NCBI GenBank assembly: GCA_030831705.1
Contig: JAURKO010000147.1
Span: 1 to 42,290, forward strand
DNA length: 42,290 nucleotides
Source of the DNA: Daejeonella sp.
GTDB lineage: Bacteria > Bacteroidota > Bacteroidia > Sphingobacteriales > Sphingobacteriaceae
Reading direction: 5' to 3'
The position numbers and the translations under genes were made by a program. The notes under the pieces were generated by a model. It was not told the origin of the DNA. It saw nothing but the letters and a program-made list of their open reading frames with translations, and ran no database searches. Shown here one piece after another: positions 9,888-34,447 of this stretch. How positions within the stretch are numbered: position 1 is the stretch's first letter; each line of letters begins with the position of its first letter.

Positions 9888-10817
9888 TTAATTTCTCTTT
9901 GTAAAAAGAACTGAAATCACCTTCATGTGCGGAGCTGTTAGAATTGCAATTGACATAAAAAATATTGCTAATAATCTTTCCAAATTACCTTTGAAAATTA
10001 TAAACAAAATTGCAATCATCAGAAAGGAAAAGCCATTGGTTAACCATGATTTACGATAGATAAACCAATAATTTTTATTTTCCCAACCCAAAAATTTCTT
10101 TATTTCAGCCATGGAGAGTCCGGCATGCCAGATATTAAAATAAAAACCAAAACCTAGTAATATGGGCAAATTAAATACGATAAGCATTAAAAATGATAAT
10201 TGCAGCACTGACACTAATTGTGGTACGCCAAATTGTTGACTTTGATATAAATAGAATAAGAGAATGGGAACAAAAAAAAGAATGGATGCAATCAAAATTT
10301 CATTTTGATATCCGTAGAGCAATTGTAATTTTCCAATCTGCCCATCATCAAAACCCGGAAAACCGAGTAAAATAGCTTCAACCTGCGGGAATTGATAAAG
10401 CAGATAATTTAACAGAAACAAAAGGCCATATAAGGAAAATAAAATCCTGGTATTCAAACTGCTCTTTAATGAAAGTCCGTTCAAATCCATTTCTCCGAAA
10501 TGATAAGCTGATATTAAAATGAATAACAGAATAGATAGTTCAACACTGATTACCCAAAGTATGGCATATAGGACTGCAAAACCTAGGTAGAATAACAAAA
10601 ACCTGACCACTGATTTGAAATTCATTGCCTCCTTTCGTTCATGGTGATAGATAACATGGTCCAGTGAGCCATGTGGAATGCCTAAAAAAATAACACCTAA
10701 ACCGAAAAAAACAAGTTGAATTTCTAAACTTAAAGGATAGAAATTATTGATTAAAAACAAGACTATTGCAAGAATAAGAAATAAAGATCGACTGGATTTA
10801 AAGTTTAGCATGGACAT
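9888..10817 (-). CDS. blh: Brp/Blh beta-carotene 15,15'-dioxygenase (retinal synthesis)
   Basis: GIPHGSLDH, SAYHFGE, WHA and LTAPHM His motifs; multi-pass membrane protein downstream of a rhodopsin. Confidence 0.93.
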   Translation of the reverse strand: MSMLNFKSSRSLFLILAIVLFLINNFYPLSLEIQLVFFGLGVIFLGIPHGSLDHVIYHHERKEAMNFKSVVRFLLFYLGFAVLYAILWVISVELSILLFILISAYHFGEMDLNGLSLKSSLNTRILFSLYGLLFLLNYLLYQFPQVEAILLGFPGFDDGQIGKLQLLYGYQNEILIASILFFVPILLFYLYQSQQFGVPQLVSVLQLSFLMLIVFNLPILLGFGFYFNIWHAGLSMAEIKKFLGWENKNYWFIYRKSWLTNGFSFLMIAILFIIFKGNLERLLAIFFMSIAILTAPHMKVISVLFTKRN

Positions 10818-11943
10818 ACTTCAAGACCTGTTTTAAAAATAATCGCTTGGGTAAGGTAGAAAAAAGGCTAAACTCTTCAAACAATTTGGAACGCTCATCT
10901 AAGAAAGACAAAATTTTCAAGAATGAATTATTGACAAAAAGCTGATCCATAATCTTTGAAACCATCTCAGGTTGATCACGAATAATCTGTAGCAGTAGCG
11001 TATCGTAAAAATGGAACCTGCTTGAACTATTTGAATTAATTATGCTTTCATTATTATTGAGGAAGCATTCGATTAAATACTTAGTGTGCCTAGAAATACG
11101 GTTAAACGCATATCCTGTACTTGGTTTTACTGCGCCTCCTGCAGATCCAATCTGAATTATCCCTTCCTTATCACGTGCAGAAAAGTCAAAATCAGTCATT
11201 GGAATTTTTCCCTTTTCCTCTCTTATAATTTCGTAAGGGCAATCGAATTTTGAAGAAATATAACCTTTAAGATATGAATCATAAACCTCATCTGAATAGC
11301 AATCTTGTTTAGAAAACGAGGTGAATTCAATCAGTGCTTCAGTTTTTGAAAAAGGCAAAACATACATAAAATGTGCAGCCTGATCCTGGGGAATATTAAA
11401 ATCCATTATTGTAGCCTGATCAACACTAAAAACCTCTCGATCAGTTTTAATAAACCATCCTTTAAAATGTTGCCATAGTAAAATCTTAGTGCAATCAACA
11501 AAAGAATGATCAATAGTACTATTATAAACATGCTTGGCAACATACATGTTATTGAGCGTATGAACTTGTTTTAAATCATTGTCTGATTTAAATTTTATCA
11601 CCTCTTCAGATACTACCCTGACTCTGGAGGAATTCTGTATTAACTGGTTGTGATACTCGAAAAACTTTTCGCTATTTATATAATTATACCTGTATGGGCT
11701 TATAATTCCGGACAATTCAGAAGTTGATGAGCAAAATTTTAGTTCTGACCAATACTTTTCAACCAGAAAATCATATTCCGATTGCTTGTTAGTCCAGAAA
11801 CACCAGGATTTATGAATTATTGTTTGATTACTTTCAATTAATAAAATCTCACCGGTCTGTTCGGCAGGCAATTTTAACAATGCATTGATAAGCTGCATGC
11901 CTGCACAACCACCTCCAACAACAATAATATTAGCATCAATCAT
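10798..11943 (-). CDS. crtY: Lycopene beta-cyclase (CrtY-type)
   Basis: GGGCAG dinucleotide-binding motif, KSWCFW, QHFKGW, FMYVLPFS, E-x-G-x-IPM and GGAVKPSTGYAF. Confidence 0.9.
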   Translation of the reverse strand: MIDANIIVVGGGCAGMQLINALLKLPAEQTGEILLIESNQTIIHKSWCFWTNKQSEYDFLVEKYWSELKFCSSTSELSGIISPYRYNYINSEKFFEYHNQLIQNSSRVRVVSEEVIKFKSDNDLKQVHTLNNMYVAKHVYNSTIDHSFVDCTKILLWQHFKGWFIKTDREVFSVDQATIMDFNIPQDQAAHFMYVLPFSKTEALIEFTSFSKQDCYSDEVYDSYLKGYISSKFDCPYEIIREEKGKIPMTDFDFSARDKEGIIQIGSAGGAVKPSTGYAFNRISRHTKYLIECFLNNNESIINSNSSSRFHFYDTLLLQIIRDQPEMVSKIMDQLFVNNSFLKILSFLDERSKLFEEFSLFSTLPKRLFLKQVLKYVHAKL

Positions 11944-11959
11944 TCTAAAAAAGAAATAA

Positions 11960-11996
11960 AAAAGAAAAGGTATCCTAAGCGGATACCTTTTCTTTT
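11960..11996 (-). terminator. Intrinsic terminator between rhodopsin and crtY
   Basis: 16-bp perfect inverted repeat AAAAGAAAAGGTATCC/GGATACCTTTTCTTTT with a 5-nt loop and a T-rich tail on the minus strand. Confidence 0.85.
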
Positions 11997-12030: not shown

Positions 12031-12804
12031 TTATGCTTTCTTCGCTTTTGCTGTTTCAGCAATTGCTACAGAGTAGATAACCAAACCGAAACCGATTTTG
12101 TTAATTGCATCAGCTAAGTTGTAGAATAAATCAATTGAACTAACTTCGAACATACCTGAAAGCAAGTTTCCTGGCAATACCATATATCCAATTGGATAGA
12201 TAGACCAACCTAAAGTAATGAAGATCTTTAACAAGAACATCGCATTTGCTAAAGCAGCGCTGTTTGATTCTTTTGTTAATCTAGAAACATCACCAGCAAA
12301 TACTTCGTAAACGATGTACAGGTAACCAAGAGTAGAAAGAACTCCCCACATGATGTTGTTGTCAATACCTGAAGTTTCACCGATAAATCCAAATATTAAC
12401 ATGGCTAATGCACAAACGATCAACTTAAATAAAGTTGAACTTTTAGCGCCAAATGGCTTTGTTAACAAGTAAAATTCTACACACATCAAAGGAACAGTTA
12501 GTGTCCAGTCCACATAGCGGAAAGCAGTTGGACTTTGACCTGTTGCAAGATAAAAATCTCTCATGTAGTAGTAGTGCACTGCAGCGATTCCAGTGATTAA
12601 ACCTGAAACTAGCAATGAGATTTTCCATTTTGGATCTACTGAGCCTCTTTCAACGAAAAAGAAAACTGCAGATGCCAACATAGCCATATAACCAATAAAA
12701 AAGGTTATTGCTATTGGGTCACCGTTTGTAATTTTTGCTAGAGCATCAGAGTCAGCAGCCATAGCACTTGTTGCATTAAGGAATAATGTTGACATAATAA
12801 ACAT
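12031..12804 (-). CDS. Proteorhodopsin-type light-driven proton pump (DTE motif, probably green-absorbing)
   Basis: Helix C RYVDWTLTVPLMCVEF gives D97/T101/E108 with M105; helix B His (AAVHY); helix G DAINK retinal lysine; adjacent to crtY and blh. Confidence 0.96.
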   Translation of the reverse strand: MFIMSTLFLNATSAMAADSDALAKITNGDPIAITFFIGYMAMLASAVFFFVERGSVDPKWKISLLVSGLITGIAAVHYYYMRDFYLATGQSPTAFRYVDWTLTVPLMCVEFYLLTKPFGAKSSTLFKLIVCALAMLIFGFIGETSGIDNNIMWGVLSTLGYLYIVYEVFAGDVSRLTKESNSAALANAMFLLKIFITLGWSIYPIGYMVLPGNLLSGMFEVSSIDLFYNLADAINKIGFGLVIYSVAIAETAKAKKA

Positions 12805-12813
12805 TTATGGTTT

Positions 12814-12873
12814 GACCTACTCGTAAGGCTTTTCAGATACGCCCAGTTTTTTTATAGTGCGGCTGCTAGCACT
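12814..12873 (-). promoter_or_regulatory. Candidate structured 5' leader RNA of the rhodopsin gene
   Basis: GC-rich patch in an AT-rich intergenic region: hairpin AGTGC-N8-GCACT, an A-run, then GGGCGTATCTGAAAAGCCTTACGAGTAGGTC ending 9 nt before the ATG. A related motif lies at 31806-31837. Confidence 0.55.
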
Positions 12874-13227
12874 TTGAAATACTATATTAAAAGTATGTAA
12901 TATTATTGATGAAATGCAAAAATATTTTACGAAAATATTTTTTTTTTAGGTATTTATAACAATTCTGTTCTTTTAAAGCGGTTATTTGATTAAAAAAATG
13001 AGAATTAAATGAAGATTGTTTACAACATCAACTAGATCAATTAATGGTTCTTTTTAGATAAAAAACCCAGACCCTAATAAAATGTTAAACTAAATTTAAT
13101 TAAAAAAAACAAAAAAGCAAGAGTGAATACAATAAAAATTAAGCCCGATCAATTTCAAACTTGAATAAGTCGTTTGAAATGCTGATAATTGCATCATTAG
13201 AATCCTATCAAAAGAAATCTATAAAAC

Positions 13228-31755: not shown

Positions 31756-31805
31756 AAGCTTATTTTTTAAAAATTTATCTTCAGTTCAATGTTAGGCCAG
31801 CAGAA

Positions 31806-31837
31806 GGGTACGCCGAAAACCTTGAAAAGAGTAGGTT
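31806..31837 (+). promoter_or_regulatory. Candidate structured leader motif upstream of the peptide gene
   Basis: GGGTACGCCGAAAACCTTGAAAAGAGTAGGTT with an AACCT/AGGTT stem; resembles the rhodopsin leader at 12814-12844. Confidence 0.5.
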
Positions 31838-31855
31838 CATGAAAAAAAATATGTT

Positions 31856-31999
31856 ATGAAAAATCTAGAGATTGAACAATTGGCCTTGGTTGAGCTTAGT
31901 GAAACTGAGTCTAATGCCATTTATGGCGGAAGACTTCCTTGGTGGGCTTGGGCAATATGGGCAGCGGCTGTTATAATAGCTATAATCGCCGAAGGTTAA
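31856..31999 (+). CDS. Double-glycine-leader precursor peptide (bacteriocin-like), 47 aa; absent from the ORF track
   Basis: MKNLEIEQLALVELSETESNAIYGG|RLPWWAWAIWAAAVIIAIIAEG: ELS-x-x-E-x-x-x-I-x-GG leader, hydrophobic Trp-rich core, and a C39 peptidase in the same locus. Confidence 0.85.
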   Translation: MKNLEIEQLALVELSETESNAIYGGRLPWWAWAIWAAAVIIAIIAEG

Positions 32000-32004
32000 G
32001 AATT

Positions 32005-32053
32005 TAAATAATCTAGCCCGGCTTTTTTAAAATTAACCAGGCTAGATTATTTA
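32005..32053 (+). terminator. Hairpin after the peptide gene (terminator or mRNA stabiliser)
   Basis: 14-bp perfect inverted repeat TAAATAATCTAGCC/GGCTAGATTATTTA. Confidence 0.7.
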
Positions 32054-32673: not shown

Positions 32674-33918
32674 ATGAATATTAATAGTTTACGTCTAAGT
32701 TTTATTTTGAAATTATCCATCATCAACTTGCTTATCCTGATGGTTAACTTTGATGTACTAGCACAAACCGATCATACGATCAAGGGTAATTTATTAGATT
32801 CTAAATTTAAAACACCCGTTGCCTTTGCAAATATTAAACTTCTAAAGGCTAATATTAGCTCCATGTCTAATAGTGAAGGTTTTTTTGCATTTAACTATGC
32901 ATCCTCCTCTGTAATGGACACCCTATTAATAACATGTATAGGTTATAAAAGCATAAAAATACCTTTGCAATTGTCCGCTACACTAGACTTCAAAGATTTT
33001 ATTCTGACACCTAATATGATTGCATTAAATGAAGTGGTTATCAGTTCATTAAATGCAAAATCTATTCTCAAGGAAGCAGTTAATACGTCAGCTAATCGTT
33101 ACCCATCTCCAGCTATATTTAAAGGATACTACCGGGAATCTGTAAAAAGGGATAGCTTCTTAACCAAATATGCAGATGGATTAGTTGAGTTTTATGTAGA
33201 GCGAAAAAAAGACAATAATTTAAAAACCGATTTGAGAGTATTGCAATCAAGAGCAAAAGAATTGCCAATTCAAGAAGAAGAAGAAAAAATTAATGAATTT
33301 AATTCTCTAATAAGTATAAATAAGATAATAAAATTCATATCTCTTACTGAGATTTCGCCATTAGATAGTAATCGCTTTGAATTCTATAACTACTCAATTT
33401 CTGAATTTTCTGAAGCAGGAAAAGCGCTCTATAGGATTGATTTTGAGCCTCAAAGCAATACAGATAAGGTTGTTCTTGGTGGAAAAATTTTCATAGATAA
33501 AAAAACAAAATTAATCTTAGCCATAGATTGTAAAGTGGCTGCAGGATCAGAAAAAAACTTAAAAACCTTTAATCTTTTAGGGACTAAAATAAGTGCAGTT
33601 TCAACTGGTCTTTATATCAGATTCGAATCAAATGAGAATTCTTACAGTGTAAAATATATAAAGGAAAGCCATGGAATGGTTTTTTCCGGCAAAAAGCTTA
33701 ACCAAAAAAATGAATTTACGAGTGAACTCCTTATAACAGGACTTCAGACAAACAACTTCATTCCGTTTACTAACGGAACTTACAATAAACGTTCACTATA
33801 TTCAAGAGGCAACCAGTATACTGATAACTATTGGGAAAATCCTAAACTGATTCCTAATGTTTCTCAAGAATCTATTTTTTTACAAAAATGGACAGGTAAT
33901 AACTTGTTAAATGAATAA
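32674..33918 (+). CDS. Carboxypeptidase-regulatory-like domain secreted protein
   Basis: Signal peptide; IKGNLLDSK...PVAFANI...SNSEGFF...ITCIGYKS...LNEVVI N-domain; GYYRE and YTDNYWEN. Confidence 0.78.
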   Translation: MNINSLRLSFILKLSIINLLILMVNFDVLAQTDHTIKGNLLDSKFKTPVAFANIKLLKANISSMSNSEGFFAFNYASSSVMDTLLITCIGYKSIKIPLQLSATLDFKDFILTPNMIALNEVVISSLNAKSILKEAVNTSANRYPSPAIFKGYYRESVKRDSFLTKYADGLVEFYVERKKDNNLKTDLRVLQSRAKELPIQEEEEKINEFNSLISINKIIKFISLTEISPLDSNRFEFYNYSISEFSEAGKALYRIDFEPQSNTDKVVLGGKIFIDKKTKLILAIDCKVAAGSEKNLKTFNLLGTKISAVSTGLYIRFESNENSYSVKYIKESHGMVFSGKKLNQKNEFTSELLITGLQTNNFIPFTNGTYNKRSLYSRGNQYTDNYWENPKLIPNVSQESIFLQKWTGNNLLNE

Positions 33919-34447
33919 GTTTAATGTATTGCAAAGAGGTTTTTCTGATTGTGGCCCTGCCTGTCTAGCTTCGGTTGCTGCATATTACGGACTTTTTGTT
34001 TCACTTGCAGAAATTCAAAAAAATACAGTTGTAAACAGAAATGGAACTACAATCAATGAATTAATTTTATCCGCAAAGAAATTAGGATTTATTGCAAAAG
34101 GTGTGAAAGGGAATATTGAATCCATAAAATTAATACCTAAACCGTTTATTGCACATTTAAAATTAAGAAATTCAATTTTCCATTTTGTATCAATCATTGA
34201 TTTAAACGATTCCGAATTATTAATGATGGATCCAGCAATAGGTAAAACAAAGCCTATTAAATACAGTGAGTTTTTGGCAGACTGGACAGGAGTTGTGGTA
34301 TTATTGGAACCTGGCAATGATTTTGTCCCGGGATATTACAGATCAGATCCTAAAAAAAAATATAGAATCATAGATTTAATTTTTAAGGCGTCAATTGCCC
34401 TTGTTATTTTTTTTGTTTGTTATATGCTTATCAAAGGATACTTTTAA
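33911..34447 (+). CDS. Stand-alone peptidase C39 with single C-terminal transmembrane anchor
   Basis: Q-x4-DCGPACL (catalytic Cys), FHFV (His), MDP (Asp), WTGVVVLL; ends after one hydrophobic helix with no ABC domains. Confidence 0.85.
   Translation: MNKFNVLQRGFSDCGPACLASVAAYYGLFVSLAEIQKNTVVNRNGTTINELILSAKKLGFIAKGVKGNIESIKLIPKPFIAHLKLRNSIFHFVSIIDLNDSELLMMDPAIGKTKPIKYSEFLADWTGVVVLLEPGNDFVPGYYRSDPKKKYRIIDLIFKASIALVIFFVCYMLIKGYF

What the first reader, a model, noticed from the sequence alone, without database searches (positions are those of the whole stretch)
12814..12873. Same structured leader motif upstream of the rhodopsin gene and the GG-peptide gene
The rhodopsin leader (sense) is GGGCGTATCTGAAAAGCCTTACGAGTAGGTC and the peptide leader (31806-31838) is GGGTACGCCGAAAACCTTGAAAAGAGTAGGTTC. 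Both show GGG..GAAAA-RCCT-loop ending GAGT-AGGT, both are in sense orientation 9-18 nt before the ATG, both are GC-rich patches in AT-rich DNA, and both are preceded by an AGCAG. Each gene is short and followed by a strong hairpin. This is a candidate cis-regulatory RNA (riboswitch, protein-binding site or stabiliser) on unrelated genes; I cannot assign it to a named family.
Basis: partly seen in the sequence, partly recalled or inferred. Interest (0 to 1): 0.72.

Follow-up and report, generated by a model that had tools for sequence, protein, structure and literature searches.

The report
Known DUF805 leader RNA on rhodopsin
Both genes carry copies of a small knotted leader RNA already catalogued in Rfam (the DUF805/DUF805b clan), which sits about 20 bases before start codons across Bacteroidota and likely helps ribosomes start translation in bacteria that do not use Shine-Dalgarno signals; the motif is known, but its function is untested.

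Summary
The shared motif is real but catalogued. The peptide leader (31803-31837) is Rfam DUF805b, above cut-off. The rhodopsin leader (12810-12877) matches its clan sister DUF805 over the full model, 3.5 bits under cut-off. A third copy lies on contig C22. This scan met the family before on other DNA.

Covariation supports an RNA pseudoknot core and a second, abutting 5' pseudoknot in the long form that the rhodopsin gene carries. The core ends 20 nt before the start codon in both genes once the rhodopsin start is corrected to 12795; the family mean is 21-22 +/- 3.5 nt. Downstream genes share no pathway, and only 25 of 71 rhodopsin genes carry the leader, patchily.

Best reading (0.5, inferred): a portable translation-initiation enhancer acting through bS1 or the 30S platform. 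Rivals: mRNA stabiliser, repressor-binding site, riboswitch. The shared AGCAG is not positionally equivalent. The second pseudoknot and a predicted loop-E module may be undescribed; the original supplement was unreadable.

The parts
12810..12877 (-). Long-form (DUF805-type) leader RNA upstream of the rhodopsin gene: two abutting predicted H-type pseudoknots
   Evidence: RF03081 47.6 bits, model 1-68, E 6.8e-8, gathering score 51.1
12856..12873 (-). 5' module hairpin P0: AGUGC (12873-12869) with GCACU (12860-12856), 8-nt loop
   Evidence: the only helix in the centroid fold; stem conserved while the loop varies in 8 of 8 same-genus rhodopsin leaders
12844..12865 (-). 5' pseudoknot helix: loop CAG (12865-12863) with CUG (12846-12844), joined through an A-rich linker (12855-12847)
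   Evidence: family covariation at the equivalent columns, 80 of 85 and 76 of 85 Watson-Crick against shuffle means of 67.9 and 65.9; the register in this copy is inferred from complementarity
12816..12843 (-). Core pseudoknot: P1 GGC (12843-41) with GCC (12829-27); P2 CU (12836-35) with GG (12817-16); GAA (12834-32) and AGUA (12821-18) are predicted to extend P2 as a loop-E/sarcin-ricin-type module
   Evidence: loop-E module inferred from the sequence signature only
12888..12895 (-). TACTTTTA, candidate Bacteroidota -7 promoter element (one mismatch to TAnnTTTG), 14 nt before P0
   Evidence: TAnnTTT(A/G) lies 55-65 nt before P2 in 8 of 8 same-genus and 5 of 7 shown genus-g8 rhodopsin leaders; AT-rich DNA, so weak
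12031..12795 (-). Microbial rhodopsin gene, 254 aa from the conserved second ATG; D-T-E pump motif and Met at the tuning site (residue roles recalled)
   Evidence: PF01036 E 7e-41; start from relatives; translation
11960..11996 (-). Terminator-like 16-bp hairpin followed by a U run, between rhodopsin and the lycopene cyclase gene
   Evidence: fold z -5.89, 0 of 200 shuffles as stable
31803..31837 (+). DUF805b core pseudoknot: P1 AAGG (31804-07) with CCUU (31820-23); P2 GCC (31812-14) with GGU (31834-36); GAA (31815-17) and AGUA (31830-33)
   Evidence: RF02914 36.8 bits, above gathering score 35.6, E 5.8e-7
31856..31999 (+). 47-aa peptide with a double-glycine-type leader; a C39 peptidase gene lies at 33911-34447
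   Evidence: translation; no Pfam or NCBIfam hit for the peptide itself; C39 hit; GG-leader assignment from the sequence
32005..32053 (+). Strong hairpin behind the peptide gene
   Evidence: fold z -5.33; not called as a classical terminator by the consensus scan

Best explanation
Both leaders are copies of the catalogued DUF805/DUF805b leader RNA, a compact pseudoknot that ends 20 bases before the start codon and likely acts as a portable enhancer of translation initiation. Shown: identity with the Rfam clan; two helices (P1, P2) forming an H-type pseudoknot by covariation; a second 5' pseudoknot in the long form; sense orientation; a spacing of 21-22 +/- 3.5 nt through an A-rich spacer; unrelated downstream genes; patchy presence on rhodopsin genes. 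Inferred: the invariant GAA and AGUA strands extend P2 as a loop-E (bulged-G) module, giving a rigid protein-recognition surface; the fold would sit at the 30S mRNA exit side, just outside the ribosome footprint, and would be bound by bS1 or the platform proteins, loading the subunit onto the A-rich initiation region in a phylum whose ribosomes do not read Shine-Dalgarno sequences. It would then be a constitutive booster that accessory genes needing much product (rhodopsin, secreted peptides, lipoproteins) pick up independently.
For: Narrow distance: ATG-ORF at 15-30 nt in 68 of 97 Bacteroidota pattern matches against 3 of 23 in other phyla and 5 of 97 on the opposite strand; 104 of 113 long forms at 14-30 nt; 21 of 23 at 15-25 nt in a set found with the 5' module alone. 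No fixed distance to a promoter: 4 TAnnTTTG hits within 19 nt among 112 long forms, the rest scattered; 8 of 119 long and 8 of 68 short copies start within 35 nt of an upstream same-strand stop, i.e. look operon-internal. Spacer 51-58% A, A at -3 in 68 of 105 long forms, matching the Bacteroidia initiation determinants, and bS1 stimulates SD-less initiation in F. johnsoniae (PMC13000457, passages). Precedent: the tisB 5' pseudoknot is needed for S1 and 30S binding (PMC7708055, abstract). RNase J not found in 101 of 101 phylum genomes searched, against 8 of 14 controls over cut-off. One locus (L534) has the 5' module followed by AGGAGGT 5 nt before an ATG in place of the core (single case, 42-codon ORF).
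Against: No experiment shows ribosome or bS1 binding. The spacer length equals the median Flavobacterium 5' UTR (24 nt, PMC9723704, passage), so it could be only the shortest gap that leaves the start site free, which fits a stabiliser as well. In the rhodopsin leaders the element lies about 8 nt behind a candidate start of transcription, as a 5' stabiliser would. The third copy (C22) is followed by ATG-TAA and lies 215 nt from the next peptide gene, 9 of 113 long forms lie beyond 30 nt, and 29 of 97 Bacteroidota matches (some of them chance hits) have no start at 15-30 nt. 46 of 71 rhodopsin genes do without it. High expression of the downstream genes was not measured.
Confidence: 0.5

Rival explanations
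1. mRNA stabiliser: the pseudoknot(s) cap the 5' end, or a processed end, and block 5'-end-dependent decay; the 20-nt spacer is only the room the ribosome needs.
For: In rhodopsin leaders a -7-like element lies just before the 5' module; RNA-library contigs of four studies cover the leader together with the coding region; both genes end in strong hairpins; spacer equals the typical 5' UTR length (PMC9723704).
Against: No RNase J match in 101 phylum genomes or over cut-off in this genome; no positional link to TAnnTTTG in the wider set and some copies abut upstream stops; a stabiliser would not need a tight upper limit on distance to AUG or invariant unpaired bases. Protection against RNase E 5' entry was not tested.
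Confidence: 0.2
2. Binding site of a dedicated RNA-binding regulator (repressor or activator) that controls translation of a dispersed set of envelope and stress genes.
For: Invariant GAAAA and GAGUA (23 of 32 matches found with the 5' module alone carry them exactly) would give a protein-recognition surface; many downstream products are small membrane or secreted proteins.
Against: Copy number ranges from 0 to 16 per genome without a shared core regulon; the core pattern also occurs with the same spacing in viral contigs (48 of 123 matches, chance hits included); no candidate regulator was sought or seen next to the copies.
Confidence: 0.14
3. Orphan riboswitch: the pseudoknot binds an ion or metabolite and switches translation of the downstream gene.
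For: Compact H-type pseudoknots with invariant loop bases are typical of small aptamers such as preQ1-I and SAM-II (recalled); the 5' module gave a faint preQ1 match, 11.7 bits, E 9.2; a nearly fixed unpaired A/G sits inside the 5' pseudoknot helix (82 of 85).
Against: 52 of 104 long-form genes with a Pfam hit fall into 30 different families, none above 5, and none is a queuosine, SAM or cofactor pathway gene; 8 of 52 in the other set have any hit; no terminator or sequestering helix between element and start (A-rich spacer); the last loop base, the ligand-pairing C in preQ1-I (recalled), is A 62, C 22, G 1 of 85.
Confidence: 0.12
4. A DNA element (promoter part, operator or recombination site), or a chance likeness of two GC-rich patches.
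For: Nearest-neighbour folding does not find the core (z +0.9 and -0.5); a GTTRRRY heptamer (31791-31797) precedes the peptide copy.
Against: 0 of 100 shuffles give a match; non-nested covariation, with G-U accepted and C-A not seen (P2 types CC/GG 86, CU/GG 23, CU/AG 9, UC/GG 1, CC/AG 0 of 119), is a property of the sense RNA strand; the folding program cannot form pseudoknots.
Confidence: 0.03

Closest known systems
DUF805b RNA motif, Rfam RF02914 (clan CL00115, type Cis-reg); attribution to Weinberg et al. 2017 (PMC5737381) is recalled and echoed in earlier scan notes, the name is not in that paper's main text
   Same: Peptide leader and C22 copy score above the gathering threshold over all 35 model positions; same P1, GAAAA and GAGUAGG; Rfam 14.3 already lists the family as pseudoknotted (PMC11539752, Table 4 passage).
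   Different: Nothing of substance for the peptide copy. The rhodopsin core alone scores only 16.9 bits on this model.
DUF805 RNA motif, Rfam RF03081 (clan CL00115)
   Same: Rhodopsin leader matches all 68 positions at E 6.8e-8: 5' hairpin, A-rich linker, core.
   Different: 47.6 bits, under the 51.1 cut-off; 8-nt loop UAGCAGCC pairing with CUG instead of the common AGNCCAGNNN with CGG; downstream gene is a rhodopsin, not a DUF805 protein (DUF805 proteins follow only 5 of 104 long forms). Whether Rfam's own annotation holds the 5' pseudoknot could not be seen (cmscan prints nested pairs only).
tisB 5' pseudoknot of E. coli (PMC7708055, abstract read); timP pseudoknot (PMC11228461, search listing only)
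   Same: A leader pseudoknot upstream of the initiation region that promotes translation through S1 and 30S binding: the closest functional precedent for the proposed mechanism.
   Different: No sequence relationship tested; tisB has a sequestered ribosome-binding site and a standby site about 100 nt upstream, whereas this element lies 20 nt from an open, A-rich, SD-less start and recurs on many unrelated genes.
preQ1-I riboswitch aptamer, Rfam RF00522
   Same: The 5' module has the same outline: short stem, loop, A-run, loop-tail pairing.
   Different: 11.7 bits against a cut-off of 39; ligand-contact position not conserved; no queuosine genes downstream.

Membership tests
DUF805b (RF02914), peptide leader | Covariance-model score at or above the gathering threshold (35.6 bits) | tested here: met
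   36.8 bits, model 1-35; C22 copy 46.8 bits
DUF805b (RF02914), peptide leader | P1 stem closing a loop that ends in CCGAAAA, followed by a tail ending GAGUAGG | tested here: met
   alignment; P1 register holds in 63 of 97 Bacteroidota matches against 0-20 for other registers
DUF805b (RF02914), peptide leader | Pseudoknot between loop and tail | tested here: met
   GCC:GGU in this copy; third pair Watson-Crick in 61 of 83 against a shuffle mean of 30.1 +/- 3.7, maximum 45
DUF805b (RF02914), peptide leader | Sense position in the leader of a protein-coding gene | tested here: met
   20 nt before ATG 31856
DUF805b (RF02914), rhodopsin leader | Score at or above the gathering threshold | tested here: not met
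   16.9 bits, E 0.045; the copy belongs with the long form
DUF805 (RF03081), rhodopsin leader | Score at or above the gathering threshold (51.1 bits) | tested here: not met
   47.6 bits; filed therefore as a clan CL00115 long-form variant just under the cut-off, not as a formal RF03081 member
DUF805 (RF03081), rhodopsin leader | Full-length significant match with 5' hairpin, A-rich linker and core | tested here: met
   model 1-68, E 6.8e-8, best match of the clan; 0 of 14 control genomes match at E 1e-4
preQ1-I riboswitch (RF00522) | Model score, conserved ligand-pairing C, queuosine genes downstream | tested here: not met
   11.7 bits against 39; last loop base C in 22 of 85; no such gene in 104; the role of that C is recalled
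Shine-Dalgarno sequence | Unpaired purine tract a few bases before the start codon | tested here: not met
   GAGUAGG ends 20 nt before AUG and its GG is paired in P2; Bacteroidia ribosomes do not read SD (PMC13000457)
Sarcin-ricin / loop-E (bulged-G) module | AGUA strand opposite a GAA strand next to a Watson-Crick pair | tested here: met
   AGUA-G opposite C/U-GAA in all three copies; exact in 23 of 32 matches found without fixing these bases; AGUA as signature in PMC13085918 (passages); GAA partner strand recalled
Sarcin-ricin / loop-E (bulged-G) module | S-turn geometry with sheared G-A, trans U-A and bulged-G triple | not testable with these tools
   needs a structure or chemical probing
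S1-dependent translation-enhancing pseudoknot (tisB type) | S1 or 30S binding depends on the pseudoknot | not testable with these tools
   needs binding and toeprint assays

The most novel reading that the evidence does not exclude
The DUF805 clan is a natural, portable, structure-based ribosome-recruiting element (an IRES-like substitute for the Shine-Dalgarno sequence) of Bacteroidota: a loop-E-reinforced pseudoknot, doubled in the long form, that docks on bS1 or the 30S platform at a fixed distance from AUG; some freshwater lineages have swapped a palindromic operator in the rhodopsin leader for it, trading regulated for constitutive high expression.
Probability: 0.35. Interest if true: 0.8.

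Novelty: new member of a known kind. Interest (0 to 1): 0.3.

Why it matters
As a discovery the motif is ordinary: one copy is a routine Rfam hit and the scan has met the family several times. It matters because the family has no known function and is common (DUF805b match in 90 of 151 genomes of this family). If it recruits ribosomes, it would supply a missing positive signal for how Bacteroidota give chosen genes strong translation without Shine-Dalgarno pairing, and a 35-70 nt expression part for Bacteroides and Flavobacterium genetics. The rhodopsin gene offers a clean natural test, since near-identical genes occur with and without the leader.

Tried and rejected
Literature: 'DUF805' + 'RNA motif' gave 0 papers; 'DUF805' gave 13, 12 listed, of which I opened one, an alignment benchmark; 'RF02914' gave 1 machine-learning paper, listing only; searches for a structured translation enhancer in Bacteroidia and for rhodopsin leaders showed no study of this RNA. 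The library lacks most subscription papers. The supplements of PMC5737381 and PMC13085918 could not be read, so the original description of the motif, which may already hold both pseudoknots and ligand tests, was not seen. Single-sequence folding misses the core and is uninformative. A shared AGCAG as part of the motif was rejected (different positions). The long form as a phage feature was rejected: 1 match in the whole viral collection. A rhodopsin-specific regulatory role was rejected: 25 of 71 genes, 2 of 29 outside the family, and 1 rhodopsin among 104 long-form genes. RNA contigs end at 12880, 12868, 12853 and 12854 and leave 10700-11973 and 12884-13156 uncovered; contigs cannot show a start, the ends differ and no DNA run was laid, so this is not counted as a mapped start site. 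Expression of the peptide gene was not examined. The sigma-70 scan is not suited to this phylum and gave 7 sites against 3.9 expected. The careful tree did not finish; the quick tree is cited. Shuffle controls ignore relatedness, so they overstate significance. Rows set aside before counts: 5 matches with unnamed and 3 with sister-group record titles (classed by hand from titles), 53 of 138 parsed rows without a strong 5' hairpin with a 10-nt loop, one locus with too little upstream DNA, and one short protein left out of the tree; the mean and s.d. use only distances of 13-33 nt. The 'short' set still holds a few long forms.

Full report
Observation. Both strings are present as quoted. The host is taken to be a Bacteroidota member by inference: SusC/SusD-type genes in the window and the record titles of the motif's carriers. 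The rhodopsin gene (PF01036) lies before lycopene cyclase and beta-carotene dioxygenase genes; the peptide gene has a double-glycine-type leader and a C39 peptidase gene nearby. Five of eight same-genus rhodopsin genes lack the first ATG and keep the second, so the start is 12795 and the gap from GAGTAGG to ATG is 20 nt in both genes.

Identity. A gathering-threshold Rfam scan of the window returns a tRNA and DUF805b (RF02914) at 31803-31837, 36.8 bits against 35.6. The rhodopsin leader matches the clan sister DUF805 (RF03081) over all 68 positions at 47.6 bits, E 6.8e-8, under the 51.1 cut-off. The C22 copy scores 46.8 on DUF805b. DUF805b matches occur in 90 of 151 genomes of the family (58 over cut-off, 0 of 14 controls), DUF805 in 25 of 150 phylum genomes (18 over cut-off). 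Earlier notes of this scan report the same family on other DNA at least six times; none joined it with rhodopsin in a word search.

Core structure. An exact pattern fixing only CCGAAAA and GAGTAGG was run on the species-genome collection; 124 loci came from 1 of 64 parts. Of 97 matches in records titled as Bacteroidota, 83 can form P1, 66 have a Watson-Crick pair extending CC:GG and 68 have an ATG-ORF 15-30 nt downstream; of 23 matches in other phyla the counts are 7, 4 and 3, and one of those, labelled Firmicutes, looks like a true copy. The extension pair is Watson-Crick in 61 of 83 against 30.1 +/- 3.7 in shuffles. With the register fixed, all three P1 pairs hold in 63 of 97 against 0-20 in other registers, with four pair types at two positions. 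In 119 long forms the P2 dinucleotides are CC/GG 86, CU/GG 23, CU/AG 9, UC/GG 1. This is an H-type pseudoknot on the sense RNA strand; Rfam already lists DUF805b as pseudoknotted (PMC11539752, passage). The shuffles ignore relatedness. The invariant GAA and AGUA flank P2 on opposite strands with the signature of a sarcin-ricin/loop-E module (AGUA signature in PMC13085918, passages; geometry recalled). That would lengthen P2 to about 7 stacked pairs and explain the conserved 'unpaired' bases structurally; it is a prediction.

Long form. From 122 metagenome loci, 1 viral locus and 29 genome loci, 138 parsed copies gave 119 with a strong 5' hairpin. In the 85 with a 10-nt loop, loop bases 4 and 5 pair with the last two bases before P1 in 80 and 76 cases, against shuffle means of 67.9 +/- 1.8 and 65.9 +/- 1.5; these were the only 2 of 30 column pairs with significant mutual information. 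The long form is thus two pseudoknots with no linker. In the window the equivalent is CAG:CUG; relatives show CAU:AUG and UGG:CCG at the same place. A pattern for the 5' module alone gave 35 places in 29 of 401 phylum genomes and none with the reversed control; of 32 distinct matches in the fetched loci, 23 are followed by an exact core, 2 by one-change variants, and 21 of the 23 have a start 15-25 nt on. This confirms the core and the spacing without fixing them in the query.

Context. Distance to AUG averages 21.8 +/- 3.5 (70 matches) and 21.2 +/- 3.5 nt (106 long forms) within the main peak; the opposite-strand control gives 5 of 97. Spacers are 51-58% A. The Bacteroidota -7 element is not placed at a fixed distance in the wider set, and some copies start within 35 nt of an upstream stop, although in rhodopsin leaders a TAnnTTT(A/G) lies close before the 5' module. 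Of 104 proteins behind long forms, 52 have a Pfam hit, in 30 families (DUF805 5, TRL 5, SCO4226-like 4, DUF1842 4, outer-membrane barrels 3, aquaporin 2, rhodopsin 1 and others); 8 of 52 in the other set have any hit. No pathway is shared. RNA-library contigs from four freshwater studies cover the rhodopsin gene and reach into the leader, one to 12880; they show presence in RNA libraries, not a start site.

Rhodopsin link. The leader is on 25 of 71 rhodopsin genes examined: 8 of 8, 12 of 12 and 3 of 3 in three genera of this family, 0 of 19 in six other genera, and 2 of 29 outside the family. On the quick tree the label needs 6 changes, at least 3 forced by strong branches; the window's clade is nested among 84-89% identical rhodopsins without it. 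Twenty of the 46 genes without it carry the palindrome TGTTTAA-N15-19-TTAAACA (up to 2 mismatches); 3 of the 25 with it do, all with 2 mismatches. So the leader is an exchangeable module, not a rhodopsin regulator.

Mechanism. Bacteroidia ribosomes sequester the anti-SD and rely on upstream adenines, and bS1 stimulates SD-less initiation (PMC13000457, abstract and passages). A leader pseudoknot that works through S1 and 30S binding is established for tisB (PMC7708055, abstract). A rigid fold tied to the start codon rather than to the promoter, on unrelated genes, in a phylum where RNase J was not found in 101 genomes searched, is best read as a translation-initiation enhancer (0.5). One locus has a Shine-Dalgarno-like AGGAGGT in place of the core, a suggestive single case. 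Against: the spacer equals the median Flavobacterium 5' UTR of 24 nt (PMC9723704, passage), the C22 copy lies 215 nt from its peptide gene behind an ATG-TAA, and nothing was tested at the bench. Stabiliser (0.2), regulator-binding site (0.14) and riboswitch (0.12) remain open.

Verdict. Real, structured and cis-positioned, but catalogued: the peptide copy is a formal DUF805b member, the rhodopsin copy a long-form clan variant just under Rfam's cut-off. My searches showed no functional study; the supplement that likely describes the motif could not be read, so the 5' pseudoknot may already be published. Interest 0.3; 0.8 if ribosome recruitment is shown.

Noticed in passing
L175-L186, L487, L488, L499-L501, L508, L512, L514, L515 (rhodopsin leaders of relatives): Palindrome TGTTTAA-N15-19-TTAAACA upstream of 20 of 46 rhodopsin genes that lack the DUF805 leader, across several families; candidate operator of a (possibly light-responsive) transcription regulator. 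Absent from the window's own leader.
   Followed up: partly
L001:1501-1535 (G000:C22:4353-4387): Third DUF805b copy, followed 4 nt later by ATG-TAA and 215 nt later by two bacteriocin-like double-glycine peptide genes; upstream lie a peptide ABC transporter and a small putative regulator.
   Followed up: partly
window 31839-31859 (+): A six-codon upstream ORF starts 3 nt after the motif and its stop overlaps the peptide start (ATGA); role unknown.
   Followed up: no
L534:1501-1570: 5' pseudoknot module followed by AGGAGGT 5 nt before an ATG instead of the core; the ORF has 42 codons.
   Followed up: partly
L210, L212, L216: Four copies with a 49-58 nt spacer hold a U-rich/A-rich hairpin between motif and start codon.
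   Followed up: no
window 31790-31803 (+), L001, L022, L039: Leaders of double-glycine peptide genes in this genus share a short TGYT...CAGCA stretch just before the core that could form a small hairpin; in the window it overlaps a GTTRRRY heptamer (31791-31797).
   Followed up: no
L490-L498, L502-L507: Rhodopsin genes of families f24 and f32 have neither the DUF805 leader nor the palindrome; many show GGAAC at a similar place upstream, perhaps an alternative-sigma promoter.
   Followed up: no
window 33911-34447 (+): Stand-alone 178-aa C39 peptidase matching only the N-terminal part of bacteriocin ABC transporters.
   Followed up: no
L304: An apparently true DUF805b copy, 24 nt before a start codon, in a record titled as Firmicutes; transfer or binning error.
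   Followed up: no
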